From sequence record NC_052657.1: a stretch of DNA of 64,000 nucleotides; one strand, written 5' to 3'. Under the pieces are notes generated by a model, which did not search any database, had not been told where the DNA came from, and saw only the letters and a list, made by a program, of their open reading frames with translations. The position numbers and the translations under genes were made by a program. The stretch's first letter is position 1. The number at the start of each line of letters is the position of its first letter. Origin of the DNA: Escherichia phage muut. Shown here piece after piece: positions 1 through 31,658 of the stretch.

Positions 1-1109
1 AACATTTTTACTCTCTTGCATGATAATCTCCTCTCATCGTTAGTCATCTTTCATGGCAATCATCAATCACCAACATCATACGATCAATCTTAGGGAATTA
101 CAATCGAATTATCATAGGGGATTCCTATCAATTATTCTATATATACCTATTATTTTTAACACACCCCTTTGTACATAATATAGACAAATAAATATCTATG
201 CCACAAAAATTTTCTGGTATACCCGATTTATTTCGACACACCCCCTTTTCATAAGCGTAAAGTCAATAATATCAATAACTTGCCGCAAAATACTGCTCGC
301 TTGCGAGAGGTGCTTAACGCGATTTTCAGCGCCCCGCGATTTTTCCCGACCGTCCCCCTCAAATATCAATGAGAATAATTATCATTTGCATTATCATTCA
401 ATGACTTATAAGACTTTTGATTATTTTCTGAGCAAGAAAGGTACTACTCACAACAAAACAGATAAATTCTAAGTAAATCAATGGCTTGGCAAGTCTAAAC
501 ATCTATATACACCTTGCCAAATGAAATGATCTGGCGTGAAATAGTGCTACCCGTGGAAGATAGCTGATAATGATTATCATTTGCATATTTTCTATACTAT
601 AAAACGCACTAAAAATCAAGATAATTCTGATTTATTGCGCTTTTAAGAAAGTAGGCTCAACAAATAGGCTATAACTATGCTCAACAAATAACAATAATAG
701 TATGAAAAATCATTTATTCAGATATAAATAATTTTGCGCAATAGTAGTAATATTTTTCTTGACAAGAAAGATTTCTTTGTGTTCACATAGCGCCCCCTGG
801 AAGGTGGCGCATTATGATCATCAATGTCATTATTCACCATGTTTATTATTGCATAGCTTATTATTTAGCTTATATTATAGCCAATGTTCTAAACACTAGC
901 TAATAATAACGCACCGCAACAATGTAAGGGATACAATATACCATGTATATTGTTGCGCTTGCAATTGTTGCAAGCTACATAAGCACAAATAATAACTATC
1001 GGTGATGGTTATTATGTGGGGTGTGTAGTTGCGTTATTATTAGCCGCCTATGTGTCCGGCATAGGCTGCTAATGATACGCTTGCGAATTATATTTCTTGT
1101 TATAGTTAT

Positions 1110-10173: not shown

Positions 10174-10435
10174 GTTCGTTCGCCTCTTCTGTTAGTAGTT
10201 TACATACCTTAAACATGCTTGCCGCATCTTTTGACGGTAGCCAGCCTATCCGATACACTCCAGGATCTGGATTAGTTATATCAGTTAGTTGCGCGTTGCG
10301 ATGATTAAAAATAGTGTAACCGCCGCCAGCACGGGGATAAACATTATCTTTAAACCTGATAGCGTATCTCGCCAGGTCGAACGTTGTAGCATGTTCAAAA
10401 GCGATCACATTATCAAAAACTTTTAGAAAAAACAA
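10163..10435 (-). CDS. Hypothetical protein (90 aa)
   Basis: ORF overlapping the start of 9619..10173 by 11 nt. Confidence 0.45.
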   Translation of the reverse strand: MFFLKVFDNVIAFEHATTFDLARYAIRFKDNVYPRAGGGYTIFNHRNAQLTDITNPDPGVYRIGWLPSKDAASMFKVCKLLTEEANEHGA

Positions 10436-10437
10436 GA

Positions 10438-10584
10438 TTATCCTCCCCAGCGTTTAAAGCCCGTTGCACGGTTGTTTTTTAGCTCTCGTTTTAGTCTCTT
10501 GCAACGGTTTACAAGTGCAAACCGTGCCGGAGTCGTAACAGTAGCGCCGTTTTTGGTGTGAATACTCATTACATATTGTTTCAT
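10438..10584 (-). CDS. Possible small basic protein (48 aa)
   Basis: Hand-translated ORF downstream of hairpin GCGGGAA-tag-TTCCCGC at 10604-10620. Below the track cutoff. Confidence 0.3.
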   Translation of the reverse strand: MKQYVMSIHTKNGATVTTPARFALVNRCKRLKRELKNNRATGFKRWGG

Positions 10585-10766
10585 AAAGTTTTATCCTATG
10601 TAAGCGGGAACTATTCCCGCTTTAAGATAGCTTATCAGGTTTTAGTGCAACGTCAACCGTTTTTTTAATCTTTTTTCATTTCTTTTTTGCTTGCTATCTA
10701 TAAAGGAAACGGCTATTATCTTTCTACCGCGCCAACCAGGGCGCACATCAAAGAAAGGGCGATACC

Positions 10767-11033
10767 ATGACAAATACCCCTTTACATCTCATGCACTCAT
10801 TGGGCTGGCAAGGCGGCACGGTGCACCAGGTAGCAAGCGCAACGGGCTTAAAGGTTGAAACCGTTCTCAACCTGGGCGATCATAAGGTGGAAGAAATAGA
10901 TCATTTTGATACGTTCGCAAATGGTTATCTATGGGCTTGCAGTGGCGGCGGGGAAAGCAAGATCCCGCCAGGGGCGCGGGGCGACATGTATTTTTGGTTA
11001 GGTGTCCTATCCTGGCAAGAAAACAAAAAATAA
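10767..11033 (+). CDS. Hypothetical protein (88 aa), the only plus-strand ORF in the early block
   Basis: ORF with ribosome-binding site AAAGAAAGGG. Confidence 0.35.
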   Translation: MTNTPLHLMHSLGWQGGTVHQVASATGLKVETVLNLGDHKVEEIDHFDTFANGYLWACSGGGESKIPPGARGDMYFWLGVLSWQENKK

Positions 11034-11035
11034 TC

Positions 11036-11064
11036 TTGACAAGCCCAGGGATCGGGCTTATACT
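11036..11064 (+). promoter_or_regulatory. Strong sigma70-type promoter (TTGACA-N17-TATACT) driving a non-coding region
   Basis: Read directly; the downstream ~100 nt carry GC-rich inverted repeats and no ORF. Confidence 0.45.
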
Positions 11065-11296
11065 GTTTTACATACAGAAGAGGAAGCGCCACCCCCACGG
11101 CGTAAAGGCGGGGCTAACATACCAGGGCACTACTGGTTGGAAGGTTGATCGCCGGTAGCTCGTCTAAAATAAATTTGTAAAGAAATGTAAAGATAAAAAT
11201 AATCGCTTGCTTTTGTTGTTGGTTATGCTATTCTTATTGTATGGCGAGGGGATACGGGAGCGCGAGACAAACACCACCCCTGCGCGTTATTCTCTA

Positions 11297-11408
11297 AATG
11301 AGAAAATTCTTATTTGGTAATGATTCTCATTCTCTTACTGAGAATGATTATCACTTACATAATTAAATGATAATGATTCTCATTTACAAATGAGAATGAT
11401 TATCATCC
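11297..11408. repeat. Cluster of five Fur-box-like palindromic motifs (AATGAT[TA]NTCAT)
   Basis: Read directly: taatgattctcattctc, gagaatgattatcacttac, gataatgattctcatttac, gagaatgattatcatccg and one degenerate copy. Confidence 0.5.
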
Positions 11409-11430
11409 GCACACCCATAAAAACACGAAA

Positions 11431-11628
11431 TTGAACTTTTCATTTTTGATTTTTCTACGGAAAAAGGCAAAAAAACTTTAAATAAACTGGGGAATTTTTA
11501 AAAAATTGAAGTTTTCATTTTCAAAATCTGGACAGAAATACATACAAAAACTTTAAATAATTTTGACCAAACTTGAACTTTTCATTTTCAAAATTTGTAG
11601 CCAAAAATCTGTAAAAACTTTAAATAAT
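11431..11628. repeat. Three direct repeats of about 56 bp (TTGAAsTTTTCATTTT...AAAAACTTTAAATAA)
   Basis: Units at about 11431-11486, 11506-11561 and 11573-11628, read directly; ORF-free and AT-rich. Confidence 0.55.
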
Positions 11629-11845
11629 TTTATCCTTTTTATAAAAATGATTTTACTGTTCTGTTATAAATAGTAGTTAAGAGATAATGTGTCTTTTAAA
11701 AGCCAGATAGCATAGTCCAACAAACAAATTAAATAATTTATTAACAGAGTACAGAATAATATTTACTCTGGATATATTATTCAGAGGGTGGATTTCCGTA
11801 CATGAAACCCACACCCCTTTTATAAAAATAAAAATTTTCAAAATA

Positions 11846-12397
11846 TCAGGAAATATCAGATTGTGTTTTTAGATAAACAGCAAGGTCTGTATGCCATTTT
11901 CCTAAAAGATTTTGTCCTTTCCAACAATCCTTGTTTTCAACATTACGATCCCACATCCCCATTTTGATACCATAAATAGAATCATAAGGGCTTGCCTCTA
12001 CGAACTCCTTATCTGCGTAAGCAATAAGTTTATTTTTGAGATCTTCATTTTGTGTGTATTTAAGATACAAACCACGTTCGACAATCTTCTCCCGTAAAGA
12101 AGTCCAGGTATCTTCATCATAATCCTTAACTAATCTACCTAGTCGCTTATAATATGCTTGTTCTTTTTCTCCTGTATATCTTAGATCTCCGGTTAAAATA
12201 GAAGATGCAATATTGTAATCATAAAACAAACATGCTTTTCTCCACATCATATATTGTTCCACACAAGTAAATTCAACATAACTTGTAATAGAATTATTAT
12301 ACTTGGGAGCTAAAGGTTCAATAAAAGATGATAGATACCAGTTGCTAAATTCATCTTTTGCCGAAAAGAAGAACACATACTTATCAGTAATCCGCAT
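11846..12397 (-). CDS. NADAR/YbiA-like (DUF1768) domain protein
   Basis: Motifs FFFSAKDEFSNWYLSSF, ASPYDSIYGIKMG and GQNLLGKWHTDL resemble the YbiA/NADAR family pattern (FF..SNF.., SP.D..WG.G, G.N.LG). Confidence 0.5.
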   Translation of the reverse strand: MRITDKYVFFFSAKDEFSNWYLSSFIEPLAPKYNNSITSYVEFTCVEQYMMWRKACLFYDYNIASSILTGDLRYTGEKEQAYYKRLGRLVKDYDEDTWTSLREKIVERGLYLKYTQNEDLKNKLIAYADKEFVEASPYDSIYGIKMGMWDRNVENKDCWKGQNLLGKWHTDLAVYLKTQSDIS

Positions 12398-13662: not shown

Positions 13663-14790
13663 TTAAAACACACTTGCCAAAGTTGCACCATTGGTGATAG
13701 TTGGTTCCAGAACAATACGGAAAGAATCTTCTGGATCATCACTAAACACAACGATTTTACCGCCTGTAATAAGATCTGCTTTCATTTTTGTCGCATTCAA
13801 TGGAATTCGAGCATCGCCTTCATCATCAAAAACCACGTAAGAGCTATTAGCAAGGGCTTCTTTAGAATCTGCATCACTTGGAGATGACAAGTACACGTCC
13901 AGTGTGCACGAACCACCTAAAAAGATTGCAGGTGTGAAGTTATGCCAACTAGATACCCAGCTAACTTTCTGAAGTTTCCCATTAATAACAACACTGCTGA
14001 TATCCCATTTATTACCACCACCTAAAGAAACACCCATCATAGAGATGCATTCTTTAAAGGATAAATCAGGGTAGAAATTAAGTTCTTCTACTATACCTTG
14101 GATCACATCAAAGGACAACTCTAAACTTACATCCCAAAGTCTTTGGAAATTATCAAAGTGTGCTTTGTTATCCAGGTTTTTATCTAAATAGTCCATCATA
14201 GTTTCTAGTGAGATTTTATCATAATTAAAATTATAAAACACACGACTAGGACGATTTAAAAAGAATTCAGAGATAAAGCCACTGTTTTTAGTCAGAATAA
14301 ACAGTTTATTACCACTGCCAGTACCATCTAACAAAGTGAGAAGTGCTTCTTGATCTTGTTTCTTCTCATATACTTTATCAAATTCATCAAAAATAATCAC
14401 TGCTTTGTCTGTGATCTTGCTAATAAGTTCAATGAAATTAGCATCACTGTAGGCTTGAGTAACCATAATAGTTGGAATACCTTCTTCTACAAGGTCACGA
14501 CTAATGAGTTTGGCTAACATAGTTTTACCACTGCCCTTAGTGCCTGTCAGGAGCAAACCTGTATTTTTACCTTGTGCACTCCGGCGATGGAATGTACGAA
14601 TAACGTGATTTGCTCGTTTTTCTGTTTCACCATACAGAACATCCGGTACACCTGTTAGATTACCACGGCTTAAAAAGTAATTGCCAAGGGGATCACGACT
14701 AACAGTATAGAATCCAGGTGGAAGATAGTTAGATTCCACGCCCATATCTTTATTTACACTTACAATATCACCATAAATCGTGTATTTCAT
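13663..14790 (-). CDS. AAA+ ATPase, paralog A
   Basis: Walker A GTKGSGKT, Walker B IIFDEFDK, sensor LTKN, NRPSR; about 45% identical in the ATPase core to 30498..31658. Confidence 0.65.
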   Translation of the reverse strand: MKYTIYGDIVSVNKDMGVESNYLPPGFYTVSRDPLGNYFLSRGNLTGVPDVLYGETEKRANHVIRTFHRRSAQGKNTGLLLTGTKGSGKTMLAKLISRDLVEEGIPTIMVTQAYSDANFIELISKITDKAVIIFDEFDKVYEKKQDQEALLTLLDGTGSGNKLFILTKNSGFISEFFLNRPSRVFYNFNYDKISLETMMDYLDKNLDNKAHFDNFQRLWDVSLELSFDVIQGIVEELNFYPDLSFKECISMMGVSLGGGNKWDISSVVINGKLQKVSWVSSWHNFTPAIFLGGSCTLDVYLSSPSDADSKEALANSSYVVFDDEGDARIPLNATKMKADLITGGKIVVFSDDPEDSFRIVLEPTITNGATLASVF

Positions 14791-30497: not shown

Positions 30498-31658
30498 ATG
30501 TTTACAGTATTCGGCAATCAAATCTTCCTGCGTCAGAAATCTGGTACAGATATTGAAGAAATTCCAGCAGGAACTTTTGGTGTAGGTGTTACTCAAAGTG
30601 GTGAGTTCTTCCTGTATCCTAAAAACGATATGGAAGTGCCTTCAGTAACATACGGTGATACTGATGATAAATCAGAACGTATTATCAAAACGTTCCTTAG
30701 CCGCAAAGGTAAAAACACAGGTGTTCTCCTTGAGGGTACGAAAGGTAGCGGTAAAACTTTGCAAGCTAAAATGCTGTCTTCTGCTCTTCGTGAAATGGGT
30801 ATTCCTACTATTTCTATCGGCAGTGCTTTTAATGGCGAAGGTTTTATCAATTTTATGTCTAAAATCACACAACCTGTGATGATTATGATCGATGAATTTG
30901 ATAAACTGTATGCTGAAAAAGATGCACAAGATGGTTTGCTTACCCTGTTGGATGGTGTTGGTGGCTACGACAAACTGTTTGTATTGACTAAAAATGATGG
31001 TTATGTATCAGAATTTTTGCGTAATCGTCCTAGCCGTATTTTCTACAGTTTTAGCTATAAGAAACTACCTAAAGCTACTATGGATGATTATCTGGCTAAA
31101 AATCTGGAGAACAAAGCCTTCTTACCAGATTTTGAAACGCTTTATAATCTCTCCGTGGATTTGAACTTTGATATTGTTCAGTCATTAGTAGAAGAACTTA
31201 ACCGTTACCCTAATGACAAATTCTCTGATGCACTTGCATTGATGGGTATCAGTATTACTGAACACCGCTATGCTGCAAAAGAGGTTAAACTTCTGAAAGT
31301 TAACGGTGTAGATCGTACAGGAGATGTTTCGTCAGATACCGATATTGACGGTATGACAGCACAAGGTTTGTTTAGCGGTAATCGTTATGTTGTAGCTGTA
31401 GACCATAAACTAGGTGAAGAGCATCTTCCTGAAATGGAAGGGATTGTTACCGTAGAAGATAAAGATGAAGAAGGTGACTACTACTGGGGTGTAGACCGTA
31501 TCTTGCTAACGTATGATGAAAAACACATTCGTACAATGGGTGGTGACGGTTATCACTTTATGTTCACCGATGATAAAGGTAACAACATTGAAGTTGTTAT
31601 TAAAAACAAAGAACGTAAAAACTACACAGAGTATGTGTTTGGTGGTCGTTCTTACTAA
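30498..31658 (+). CDS. AAA+ ATPase, paralog B
   Basis: GTKGSGKT, IMIDEFDK, LTKN, NRPSR; paralog of 13663..14790 with a divergent C-terminal domain. Confidence 0.65.
   Translation: MFTVFGNQIFLRQKSGTDIEEIPAGTFGVGVTQSGEFFLYPKNDMEVPSVTYGDTDDKSERIIKTFLSRKGKNTGVLLEGTKGSGKTLQAKMLSSALREMGIPTISIGSAFNGEGFINFMSKITQPVMIMIDEFDKLYAEKDAQDGLLTLLDGVGGYDKLFVLTKNDGYVSEFLRNRPSRIFYSFSYKKLPKATMDDYLAKNLENKAFLPDFETLYNLSVDLNFDIVQSLVEELNRYPNDKFSDALALMGISITEHRYAAKEVKLLKVNGVDRTGDVSSDTDIDGMTAQGLFSGNRYVVAVDHKLGEEHLPEMEGIVTVEDKDEEGDYYWGVDRILLTYDEKHIRTMGGDGYHFMFTDDKGNNIEVVIKNKERKNYTEYVFGGRSY

What the first reader, a model, noticed from the sequence alone, without database searches (positions are those of the whole stretch)
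11431..11628. Three ~56-bp direct repeats in the second non-coding region
Three units (TTGAAsTTTTCATTTT...AAAAACTTTAAATAA) repeat with periods of 75 and 67 bp between the Fur-like box cluster and the NADAR cassette. They could be tandem promoters, for example for a phage-modified RNA polymerase, or binding sites for a replication or partition protein. A GGGTG/CACCC hairpin followed by a T-run at about 11786-11822 follows.
Basis: seen in the sequence. Interest (0 to 1): 0.5.

Follow-up and report, generated by a model that had tools for sequence, protein, structure and literature searches.

The report
Conserved curved triple-repeat DNA element
Three 63-bp direct repeats in a phi92-like coliphage are real, occur once per genome, and recur as three copies spanning about 141 bp in the same untranslated region of nearly all rV5-like phage lineages examined; they most likely form a curved protein-binding DNA array, possibly the replication origin, rather than promoters.

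Summary
Three direct repeats lie at 11427-11631, with periods of 75 and 67 bp. Each holds an identical 16-nt box A and an identical 15-nt box B, 40 bp apart. Neither box occurs elsewhere in the ~147-kb genome.

The window is a phi92-like phage (Justusliebigvirus). The repeats sit in an 812-bp untranslated gap that is a conserved module in rV5-like phages of two subfamilies. Its order is: sigma-70 promoter plus structured RNA1, a perfect CpxR-consensus box, promoter plus RNA2, Fur-like boxes overlapping a third promoter (P3), then the three repeats.

- Twelve of 17 non-redundant lineages keep three copies spanning 138-143 bp (a thirteenth spans 133), although the repeat sequence differs between subfamilies.
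- No sigma-70 promoter lies inside the repeats.
- No RNA structure is predicted, and the motif is not reused upstream of genes.
- The region has the strongest helically phased A-tracts and the highest predicted curvature in the 64-kb window.
- By homology to a published terminal repeat, it lies about 10.9 kb (7.4%) from the physical left end, so it is not a packaging site.

Best reading (confidence about 0.4): a DNA-level, iteron-like protein-binding array in a host-signal-responsive control region, possibly a transcription-activated origin. The function is unproven and, in the literature I could search, undescribed.

The parts
11427..11489 (+). Repeat unit 1 (box A 11431-11446, A-tract spacer, box B 11471-11485)
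11502..11564 (+). Repeat unit 2 (box A 11506-11521 extended by palindrome ATTTTCAAAAT 11517-11527; box B 11546-11560)
11569..11631 (+). Repeat unit 3 (box A 11573-11588 with palindrome 11584-11594; box B 11613-11627)
11720..11739 (+). Degenerate fourth copy of box B (ACAAACAAATTAAATAATTT, 85% to the reference)
   Evidence: family D2
11834..11844 (+). Third and last copy in the window of the 11-mer palindrome ATTTTCAAAAT, at the right edge of the module
   Evidence: 3 matches in 64 kb, 0.3 expected, all in the module
11377..11406 (+). Promoter P3 (TTCTCA-18-TATCAT), overlapped by the last Fur-like boxes and reading into repeat 1. Clearer extended -10 homologues occur in Vequintavirinae, followed by the conserved ACCCATAAAAA
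11316..11410 (.). Cluster of Fur-box-like palindromes directly upstream of the repeats
11420..11640 (.). Segment with helically phased A-tracts and the highest predicted intrinsic curvature in the window; 78% A+T
11036..11170 (+). Promoter P1 (TTGACA-17-TATACT, 11/12) and conserved structured RNA1; left end of the module
11177..11191 (+). GTAAAGAAATGTAAA, a perfect CpxR-consensus box just upstream of promoter P2
11207..11290 (+). Promoter P2 (TTGCTT-16-TATTCT; by homology to TTGATC-16-TATTAT in relatives) and conserved hairpin RNA2
11787..11822 (+). Weak hairpin plus U-run; possible terminator for + strand transcripts of the module
11034..11845 (.). The whole untranslated module between the convergent genes gp224 (10767-11033, +) and the NADAR gene (11846-12397, -)

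Best explanation
The three repeats are a cis-acting DNA element. They form an iteron-like array of three units, each made of box A, an A-tract spacer and box B. Together the units give a strongly curved, A+T-rich segment of about 220 bp, which I propose is bound by a sequence-specific DNA-binding protein, most likely phage-encoded. The array is one fixed part of a conserved ~0.8-kb untranslated control module shared by rV5-like phages. It lies directly downstream of promoter P3, which Fur-like boxes overlap. The role I favour is a transcription-activated replication origin or replisome-loading site for a T7-type replisome that has no recognisable initiator. Control of the module's own promoters is the second option.

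Shown here: the anatomy, the single occurrence per genome, conservation of copy number and span, the absence of promoters and of RNA structure, and the A-tract phasing. Inferred: protein binding, the identity of the binder, and the origin function.
For: (1) Each box occurs three times exactly, and nowhere else in about 147 kb.
(2) Among seven Justusliebigvirus genomes, 0 of 111 box columns vary, against 5 of 87 spacer and linker columns and 26 of 215 downstream columns. The 221-bp region is 97-98% identical in most of the 54 Justusliebigvirus records that cover it.
(3) The same position in the same module holds three direct repeats in 13 of 17 non-redundant lineages from two subfamilies. The first interval is 63-75 bp and the second 66-78 bp, yet the span from repeat 1 to repeat 3 is 138-143 bp in 12 of them.
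(4) The repeat sequence differs between subfamilies (CGATCGAGAACC type against TTTAAATAA type), and all three copies changed together. This is what co-evolution with a binding protein predicts.
(5) All ten windows with the strongest 10-11-bp A-tract periodicity in the 64-kb window start at 11341-11501 and overlap the repeat array (power 1.3-1.6 against 0.10 +/- 0.11). Predicted curvature ranks 1 of 6374 windows. The phasing signal ranks 1-3 in the fetched loci from Seunavirus, Mydovirus (KPP-1), a Vequintavirus-like contig and other Justusliebigvirus genomes.
(6) No RNA structure is predicted: z = +0.94 on the + strand and -0.01 on the - strand. RNAalifold finds 0 pairs in 26 Vequintavirinae units.
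(7) Short palindromes occur in the units, which suits recognition of double-stranded DNA (ATTTTCAAAAT, CGATCG, TTTAAA).
(8) In the FBKp34 lineage the equivalent units flank a promoter, so one copy lies outside that transcript.
(9) A conserved promoter reads into the array. rV5-type phages are reported to have a podovirus-like primase-helicase, and skew analysis did not locate their origin (PMC3606486).
Against: - No binding protein is identified. The neighbouring HTH-like gp224 occurs with both repeat types, so it does not co-vary, and its structure model failed.
- The 67-75-bp period is about three times that of classical iterons.
- There are no DnaA boxes.
- No initiator gene is adjacent. 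The AAA+ ATPase 2 kb away is not syntenic in Vequintavirinae.
- A+T richness and A-tract phasing are absent from the Certrevirus versions and from phAPEC8. Curvature and easy unwinding are therefore not universal properties.
- The array is probably transcribed from P3, and its + strand is A-rich in all lineages, which would also suit an RNA-level role.
- CpxR and Fur boxes are more typical of a regulatory RNA locus than of an origin.
- GC skew is dominated by gene orientation and says nothing about the origin (PMC3606486).
Confidence: 0.42

Rival explanations
1. RNA-level function. P3 is a Fur-repressible promoter. Its transcript is an unstructured, A/U-rich non-coding RNA whose three repeated modules sequester an RNA-binding protein (Hfq, ProQ or RNase E, in the manner of CrcZ or CsrB) or act as repeated seed regions.
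For: A conserved promoter lies 8-15 nt upstream of repeat 1 in most lineages. Its -10 lies inside a Fur-like box. The module clearly encodes other non-coding RNAs from P1 and P2. A CpxR box points to host-signal-regulated RNA genes. The + strand is A-rich in every lineage, with AT skew +0.05 to +0.27. The absence of secondary structure would suit a single-stranded sponge. A possible terminator follows at 11787-11822.
Against: A-tracts phased at the DNA helical repeat have no meaning in RNA. A span fixed at ~141 bp, kept by compensating interval changes, is hard to explain for a sponge. There are no GGA-type or otherwise recognisable protein-binding motifs. No complementary target exists in the phage genome. 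In the FBKp34 lineage one unit lies upstream of the local promoter. No terminator follows repeat 3 in the Vequintavirinae.
Confidence: 0.22
2. Architectural DNA without a dedicated phage protein. The curved, A+T-rich array attracts host nucleoid proteins or DNA gyrase (as do the Mu strong gyrase site, pSC101 par or REP elements). It would act as an insulator or supercoil-relief site where the module's rightward promoters meet the leftward gp217-223 operon.
For: Curvature and A-tract phasing are extreme. The ~141-bp span is close to the length of DNA wrapped by gyrase (my own knowledge). The array lies exactly between convergent transcription units.
Against: The boxes are invariant and differ between subfamilies that infect the same host, which argues for sequence-specific rather than shape-only recognition. 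Curvature is absent in Certrevirus and phAPEC8.
Confidence: 0.1
3. A boundary or checkpoint for DNA entry, analogous to the injection stop signal in the untranslated repeat region of T5-like phages. The first ~7% of the genome (the small early genes) would enter and be expressed before the rest.
For: By homology to the 342-bp terminal repeat that PhageTerm gave for BME3, the physical end maps to window 243-585, so the repeats lie about 10.9 kb (7.4%) from it (PMC12210895). In KPP-1 the module is about 8 kb from the 514-bp terminal repeat (PMC9862379). T5 first-step transfer covers 7.9% (bioRxiv 10.1101/866236). The interval holds only small genes on the minus strand; their own promoters are annotated in the relatives phAPEC8 and FBKp34. 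The T5-like untranslated region also carries an array of Fur-like boxes and 65-bp direct repeats.
Against: Only the Fur-like boxes are shared in sequence. There are no paired DnaA boxes. The terminal repeat is 0.3-0.5 kb, not 10 kb. No large A1-like ORF lies in the early block. No two-step transfer has been reported for these phages.
Confidence: 0.08
4. Tandem promoters. Each unit would be a transcription start signal for host RNA polymerase with an alternative sigma factor or a phage-encoded modifier.
For: In the Klebsiella FBKp34/KP13-16 lineage the equivalent position holds two 45-bp units that each score as a strong sigma-70 promoter on the minus strand (TTGACA-17-CATAAT 11/12; TGGACA-17-CATAAT 10/12), plus a third minus-strand promoter. 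The minus strand of box B contains TAAAGTTT, the sigma-28 -35 consensus (my own knowledge of the consensus).
Against: No sigma-70-type match is found in 11427-11631 on either strand, nor in the KB57 repeats on the minus strand. The region where a -10 would fall is the non-conserved spacer. The motif is absent upstream of every gene in the genome. No gene lies downstream in either direction.
Confidence: 0.05

Closest known systems
Iteron-type replication origins (lambda ori, pSC101 with three iterons, P1 oriR)
   Same: Several direct repeats present once per genome, intrinsically bent A+T-rich DNA, nearby transcription, and repeat sequence that changes together with the lineage.
   Different: The units are 63 bp at a 67-75-bp period, against about 19-22 bp. 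No initiator gene is identified next to them, there are no DnaA boxes, and binding and initiation are untested.
Transcription-primed phage origins (T7 primary origin: promoters 1.1A/1.1B plus an A+T-rich stretch; T4 oriF/oriG: a promoter plus an unwinding element)
   Same: A promoter reads straight into an unstructured A+T-rich non-coding stretch. The replisome is of a type with no dedicated initiator. The site lies in the left part of a genome with terminal repeats.
   Different: Those origins have no conserved triple repeat. Here the promoter is a host sigma-70 promoter overlapped by Fur-like boxes. The Certrevirus versions are not A+T-rich.
T5-like untranslated repeat region 3 / injection stop signal (Davison, bioRxiv 10.1101/866236)
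   Same: A large, conserved, repeat-rich untranslated region about 7-8% from the left end, bordering a block of small early genes. It contains arrays of Fur-like boxes and direct repeats of about 65 bp.
   Different: There is no sequence homology apart from the Fur-like boxes, no DnaA box pairs, no long terminal repeat, no A1/A2 genes and no evidence of two-step transfer.
Protein-sponge RNAs with repeated motifs (CrcZ, CsrB)
   Same: If transcribed from P3, the product would be an unstructured RNA of several hundred nucleotides with three repeated sequence modules under control of a host regulator.
   Different: No known binding motif is present. The helical phasing of A-tracts and the fixed span point to DNA. 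The transcript has not been demonstrated.

Membership tests
Tandem sigma-70 promoters (T7 A1-A3 type) | -35 and -10 hexamers 16-18 bp apart in each unit | tested here: not met
   The consensus scan of 10400-12100 finds 7 sites, none inside 11427-11631 on either strand.
Phage-specific promoter class (modified RNA polymerase) | The same motif recurs upstream of many genes of one temporal class | tested here: not met
   Boxes A and B are confined to this locus in the 64-kb window and in the other ~85 kb of phage inny.
Iteron-type origin | Three or more direct repeats at a single locus | tested here: met
   Three units, one locus per genome.
Iteron-type origin | Repeats of about 17-22 bp spaced about two helical turns apart | tested here: not met
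   Units of 63 bp at 75 and 67 bp; 63-78 bp in relatives.
Iteron-type origin | Bent or A+T-rich DNA at or beside the repeats | tested here: inconclusive
   Extreme in the window and strong in several genera, but absent in Certrevirus and phAPEC8.
Iteron-type origin | An initiator gene adjacent to, or overlapping, the iterons | tested here: inconclusive
   gp224 has an HTH-like motif but no Pfam or PDB match, does not co-vary with repeat type, and its model failed. The AAA+ gp221 is not syntenic in Vequintavirinae.
Iteron-type origin | DnaA boxes (TTWTNCACA) | tested here: not met
   None in 11034-11845 on either strand.
Iteron-type or transcription-primed origin | Replication starts here | not testable with these tools
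   This needs marker-frequency or 2D-gel data. GC skew follows gene orientation (PMC3606486).
Transcription-primed origin (T7 / T4 oriF type) | A promoter reading directly into the non-coding element | tested here: met
   P3 at 11377-11406; clearer extended -10 homologues in KB57, SPLA5a and the Vequintavirus-like contig. These are consensus matches only.
T5 injection-stop / untranslated repeat region | Position about 8% from the physical left end | tested here: met
   About 10.9 kb of about 147 kb (7.4%), by homology to the BME3 terminal repeat (PMC12210895). The ends of this window's own virion DNA are not known.
T5 injection-stop / untranslated repeat region | Lies within a ~10-kb terminal repeat and carries paired DnaA boxes | tested here: not met
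   The terminal repeat is 342-514 bp in relatives (PMC12210895, PMC9862379). No DnaA box is present.
T5 injection-stop / untranslated repeat region | Two-step DNA transfer dependent on A1/A2 | not testable with these tools
   No large ORF lies in the early block. The transfer experiment would be needed.
Type III antitoxin RNA (ToxI / pseudo-ToxI) | Head-to-tail repeats of about 36 nt that fold into pseudoknots, next to a toxin gene or known escape locus | tested here: not met
   Units are spaced and have variable cores. No structure is predicted. The phiTE pseudo-ToxI locus is at 106.7 kb, a different locus (PMC3475682).
CRISPR mini-array | Identical 24-40-nt repeats alternating with unique spacers of similar length | tested here: not met
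   There are two different conserved boxes per unit and irregular linkers of 12 and 20 bp.
Packaging site (pac, or lambda cosB R sites) | Located at the genome end or beside the terminase genes | tested here: not met
   The homologue of the terminal repeat lies at window 243-585. The terminase gene is about 70 kb away in phage inny.
Any Rfam RNA family | A covariance-model match | tested here: not met
   No match up to E = 1 in 10400-12100.

The most novel reading that the evidence does not exclude
The module is a commitment checkpoint that reads host state. The CpxR box would report envelope stress caused by infection, and the Fur boxes would report iron status. These inputs gate transcription across the curved triple array. 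The array would be either an R-loop-type origin or a T5-like hand-over point for DNA entry, at the inner edge of the first ~7% of the genome to enter. On this reading a large group of virulent myoviruses would couple the start of replication, or the completion of genome entry, to host physiology through a cis element that has not been described.
Probability: 0.1. Interest if true: 0.85.

Novelty: new variant of a known kind. Interest (0 to 1): 0.6.

Why it matters
rV5-like phages (Vequintavirinae and Stephanstirmvirinae) are widely used in therapy and biocontrol. Their replication origin, early regulatory circuitry and mode of genome entry are unknown.

This work turns an unexplained repeat into a defined comparative object: a single ~0.8-kb untranslated module per genome. 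It holds two conserved structured RNAs, a perfect CpxR box, Fur boxes, and a curved triple repeat of fixed span, all at the inner border of the left-terminal early region. If the array is the origin, it gives a handle for engineering these phages and for building ori-plasmids. If it is regulatory, it would show a virulent phage wiring host stress regulators into its programme. Each alternative can be tested directly with the coordinates given here.

Tried and rejected
- Rfam scan of the region: nothing up to E = 1.
- pseudo-ToxI mimicry, suggested by the phiTE homologue: the escape locus is elsewhere in phiTE, and the repeats are not tandem 36-mers.
- CRISPR-like array: the anatomy does not fit.
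- pac/cos site: the terminal repeat and the terminase gene are far away.
- Sigma-70 promoters in the units: none.
- Sigma-28 promoters on the minus strand: the -35 matches, but the -10 falls in non-conserved spacer (read from the sequence).
- Structured RNA: z-scores at or above 0, and no consensus pairs.
- DnaA boxes: none.
- Dam/SeqA GATC clusters: enriched 2-4-fold in Vequintavirinae units but absent from the window's units, so not universal.
- Plasmid or satellite copies of the module: none in PLSDB.
- Sequence homology with the T5-like untranslated region: only the Fur-like boxes.
- Co-variation of the neighbouring small protein gp224 with repeat type: none.
- gp224 structure from a single sequence: pLDDT 38, unusable; PDB sequence search uninformative.
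- GC skew as an origin marker: confounded by gene orientation.
- Literature searches for a description of this region in rV5, phi92, PVP-SE1, CB7 and BME3 papers: only a 'non-coding' box in the rV5 map and unlabelled repeat_region features in two GenBank records.
- OmpR-site resemblance of box A: noted from memory only and not pursued.

Full report
**What the window is.** The 2-kb stretch around the finding is 97% identical to Escherichia phage phi92, BME3 and about 50 other Justusliebigvirus genomes (Stephanstirmvirinae, the rV5-like myoviruses). In phi92 terms the repeats lie in an 812-bp gap (window 11034-11845). On its left is gp224 (88 aa, + strand, 10767-11033). On its right is gp223 (183 aa, - strand, 11846-12397), which carries a NADAR domain. 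The two genes converge, so the gap is not the upstream region of any ORF. GenBank records for phages inny and alia label part of it only as 'repeat_region'. The rV5 genome paper shows a 'non-coding' box in its map without comment.

**The observation.** Three direct repeats are present at 11427-11489, 11502-11564 and 11569-11631, with spacing of 75 and 67 bp.
- Each unit has an exact 16-nt box A (TTGAASTTTTCATTTT) and an exact 15-nt box B (AAAAACTTTAAATAA).
- The two boxes are 40 bp apart and are separated by a poorly conserved, A-tract-rich spacer.
- Linkers between units are 20 and 12 bp.
- Neither box has another close match in the 64-kb window or in the remaining ~85 kb of the close relative inny.
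- An 11-mer palindrome within box A of units 2 and 3, ATTTTCAAAAT, occurs three times in 64 kb against 0.3 expected. All three copies lie in this gap; the third is at 11834-11844.
- The hairpin and U-run near 11787-11822 exist but are weak.

**The surroundings are a conserved module.**
- A distant DNA search showed that the left part of the gap is 80-85% identical even in Klebsiella, Cronobacter, Salmonella and Pectobacterium phages of the other subfamily, Vequintavirinae.
- I read the equivalent gaps (750-880 bp) from 12 annotated phages, plus contigs from IMG/VR and metagenomes.
- Every lineage has the same order of elements:
  - a strong sigma-70 promoter P1 (TTGACA-17-TATACT, 11/12 in the window);
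  - a GC-rich RNA1 of about 100 nt;
  - the motif GTAAA-N5-GTAAA;
  - a second promoter P2 and a hairpin RNA2 of about 55 nt;
  - one to four Fur-box-like palindromes;
  - three direct repeats;
  - two or three copies of TTTGAGATAA (in the window only a GAGATAAT remnant at 11681);
  - two or three copies of AAATATC at the right edge.
- RNA1 and RNA2 have consensus structures with some compensatory changes. Neither matches any Rfam family.
- GTAAA-N5-GTAAA is, to my knowledge, the CpxR recognition consensus. It occurs once in the window (11177-11191) and at the same place in about 38 fetched loci.

**The triple repeat is conserved in number and span, but not in sequence.**
- In Vequintavirinae the unit is AAAAATTTTTTCG-N9-GAnnAAATACGATyTsGAAAwTGAAAAnyCGATCGAGAACCC.
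- In Stephanstirmvirinae the unit is the box A / box B type.
- The two types share only a core (CGAAATTGAAaCTTT and a TTTTSAAAA palindrome).
- A search that assumed no motif found three copies in 13 of 17 non-redundant lineages. The first interval is 63-75 bp and the second 66-78 bp. The distance from repeat 1 to repeat 3 is 138-143 bp in 12 of them and 133 bp in one.
- The two intervals therefore compensate for each other. All three copies in a genome have changed together between subfamilies.
- Within Justusliebigvirus no box column varies (0 of 111). By contrast, 5 of 87 spacer and linker columns vary, and 26 of 215 columns downstream vary.

**Tests of the promoter reading.**
- The consensus scan finds no sigma-70-type site inside the repeats on either strand.
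- Because the motif occurs at a single locus, it cannot be a promoter class for a modified polymerase.
- The minus strand of box B contains TAAAGTTT, the sigma-28 -35 consensus. The position where the -10 would fall is the non-conserved spacer.
- A promoter does exist just upstream. P3 (TTCTCA-18-TATCAT, 11377-11406) overlaps the last Fur-like boxes.
- P3 has clearer extended -10 counterparts in the Vequintavirinae: TTGACT-17-GATACT with a TG in KB57, and others read from the sequence. These are followed by the conserved ACCCATAAAAA and then repeat 1.
- The array is therefore probably transcribed on the + strand.
- One lineage differs. In Klebsiella phages FBKp34 and KP13-16 the triple repeat is replaced by two 45-bp units 186 bp apart. 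Each scores as a strong minus-strand sigma-70 promoter, and together they flank a plus-strand promoter.

**RNA level or DNA level.**
- The repeat region folds no better than shuffled sequence: z = +0.94 on the + strand and -0.01 on the - strand.
- RNAalifold finds no pair in 26 aligned Vequintavirinae units.
- In contrast, all ten windows with the strongest 10-11-bp periodicity of A-tracts in the 64-kb window start at 11341-11501 and overlap the repeat array. Their power is 1.3-1.6, against a mean of 0.10 and a 99th percentile of 0.45.
- A wedge-model curvature profile ranks 11420-11640 first of 6374 windows, at 39 degrees against 19 +/- 3.4. The dinucleotide parameters were recalled from memory, so this result is only qualitative.
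- The phasing signal ranks 1-3 within the fetched loci of SPLA5a, GAP31, KPP-1, a Vequintavirus-like contig and other Justusliebigvirus genomes. It is near the top in KB57, FBKp34 and two metagenomic lineages. It is absent in Certrevirus, phAPEC8 and ABPH49.
- Phasing with the DNA helix, the fixed span and the palindromic cores favour a DNA-level element.
- The conserved upstream promoter and the A-rich + strand keep an RNA-level role alive.

**Position in the genome.**
- PhageTerm analyses in the literature give a 342-bp direct terminal repeat for BME3 and a 514-bp repeat for the Mydovirus KPP-1 (PMC12210895, PMC9862379).
- The BME3 repeat is annotated at 146957-147298 and is homologous to window 243-585.
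- The three repeats therefore lie about 10.9 kb (7.4%) from the inferred left end. In KPP-1 the module is about 8 kb from the repeat.
- The interval holds only small minus-strand genes.
- This rules out a packaging site. The terminase gene is also about 70 kb away.
- The position recalls T5, whose first-step transfer covers 7.9% and ends in a conserved untranslated repeat region (bioRxiv 10.1101/866236).
- A T5-like phage matched the Fur-like boxes. Its untranslated region carries a 23-bp-periodic array of about a dozen such boxes, DnaA boxes and 65-bp direct repeats.
- Nothing beyond the Fur-like boxes is shared in sequence. The window's module has no DnaA box.

**Candidate binding proteins.**
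- gp224 carries an HTH-like stretch (GWQGGTVHQVASATGLKVETVL). It is present with both repeat types, so it does not co-vary with them.
- gp224 has no Pfam or PDB match, and the single-sequence model was unusable.
- An AAA+ ATPase (13663-14790) has weak similarity to helicase loaders and clamp loaders and lies 2 kb away. No homologue was found within 5-8 kb of the module in the Vequintavirinae loci.

**Conclusion.** The repeats are a genuine, selectively maintained cis element present once per genome, and part of an apparently undescribed control module.
- I favour a DNA-level, iteron-like protein-binding array on curved DNA (0.42). Within that, a transcription-activated origin is the most likely role. 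This fits the report that these phages have a podovirus-type primase-helicase and an unlocated origin (PMC3606486).
- Alternatives are repeated modules of a Fur-controlled non-coding RNA (0.22), architectural or gyrase-binding DNA (0.10), a T5-like entry checkpoint (0.08) and tandem promoters (0.05).
- None of these can be settled without transcript mapping, replication mapping and binding assays.

Noticed in passing
window 11036-11170: A strong sigma-70 promoter (TTGACA-17-TATACT) is followed by a GC-rich RNA of about 100 nt. The RNA is 80-85% identical across both rV5-like subfamilies. It has a consensus structure with two covarying pairs and a possible CCCC/GGGG pseudoknot, and it matches no Rfam family.
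   Followed up: partly
window 11177-11191: GTAAAGAAATGTAAA is a perfect match to the CpxR consensus GTAAA-N5-GTAAA (recalled from memory). It is the only match in the 64-kb window and is conserved at the same place, just upstream of promoter P2, in about 38 related loci. Extra copies lie near the terminal repeat of Mydovirus KPP-1 (L034 2844-2858).
   Followed up: partly
window 11241-11290: A second conserved small RNA (RNA2) lies downstream of P2. It is a hairpin with three covarying pairs and ends right at the first Fur-like box.
   Followed up: partly
window 365-585, 1467-1545 and 11316-11410: Fur-box-like palindromes cluster at both borders of the left-terminal early block. They occur inside and beside the homologue of the terminal repeat, and in the module. 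They are the only sequence shared by the two non-coding regions.
   Followed up: partly
L031 (T5-like phage Gostya9) 1349-1604: [quoted passage not shown] These are probably the 'DRD' repeats of T5. The T5 review I read does not describe them as Fur sites.
   Followed up: partly
window 243-585: This segment is homologous to the 342-bp direct terminal repeat that PhageTerm gave for phage BME3. The physical genome end probably lies inside this window. The BME3 record itself carries this region twice, at its start and at its end.
   Followed up: partly
window 10767-11033: gp224 is the only + strand ORF in the neighbourhood. It has an HTH-like motif, no Pfam or PDB match, and homologues in both subfamilies. 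Other lineages have an unrelated small protein at this position (DUF7170, or a winged-helix-like 69-aa protein).
   Followed up: partly
L007 2345-2389, 2531-2575, 2643-2671 (Klebsiella phage FBKp34; also KP13-16): In this lineage the triple repeat is replaced by two 45-bp units that each score as a strong minus-strand sigma-70 promoter. A third minus-strand promoter is also present, and the units flank a plus-strand promoter.
   Followed up: partly
L029, module positions about 130-760: One IMG/VR contig has an ORF of about 600 nt (function not checked) inserted into the module between an RNA1 copy and a second, divergent promoter-plus-RNA1-like copy.
   Followed up: no
window 11838-11857 and the right edge of all modules: AAATATC motifs are repeated two to four times at 11-13-bp spacing (AAATATCAGGAAATATCAG in the window). 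They overlap the 3' end of the convergent gene. In most lineages TTTGAGATAA motifs (extended -10-like) lie between the repeats and this edge.
   Followed up: no
window 13663-14790 and 30501-31256: Two paralogous AAA+ ATPases (42% identical) show weak similarity to DnaC-like loaders and clamp loaders. One lies in the short leftward operon next to the module.
   Followed up: no
L009/L011/L025 (Certrevirus), about 30-130 bp after repeat 3: Two near-perfect palindromes of 25-30 bp (for example TTAATGAGT-N8-ACTCATTAA) follow the triple repeat in Certrevirus modules. The window has a 9-bp inverted repeat (GAATAATAT / ATATTATTC) at 11754-11785 in the equivalent position.
   Followed up: no
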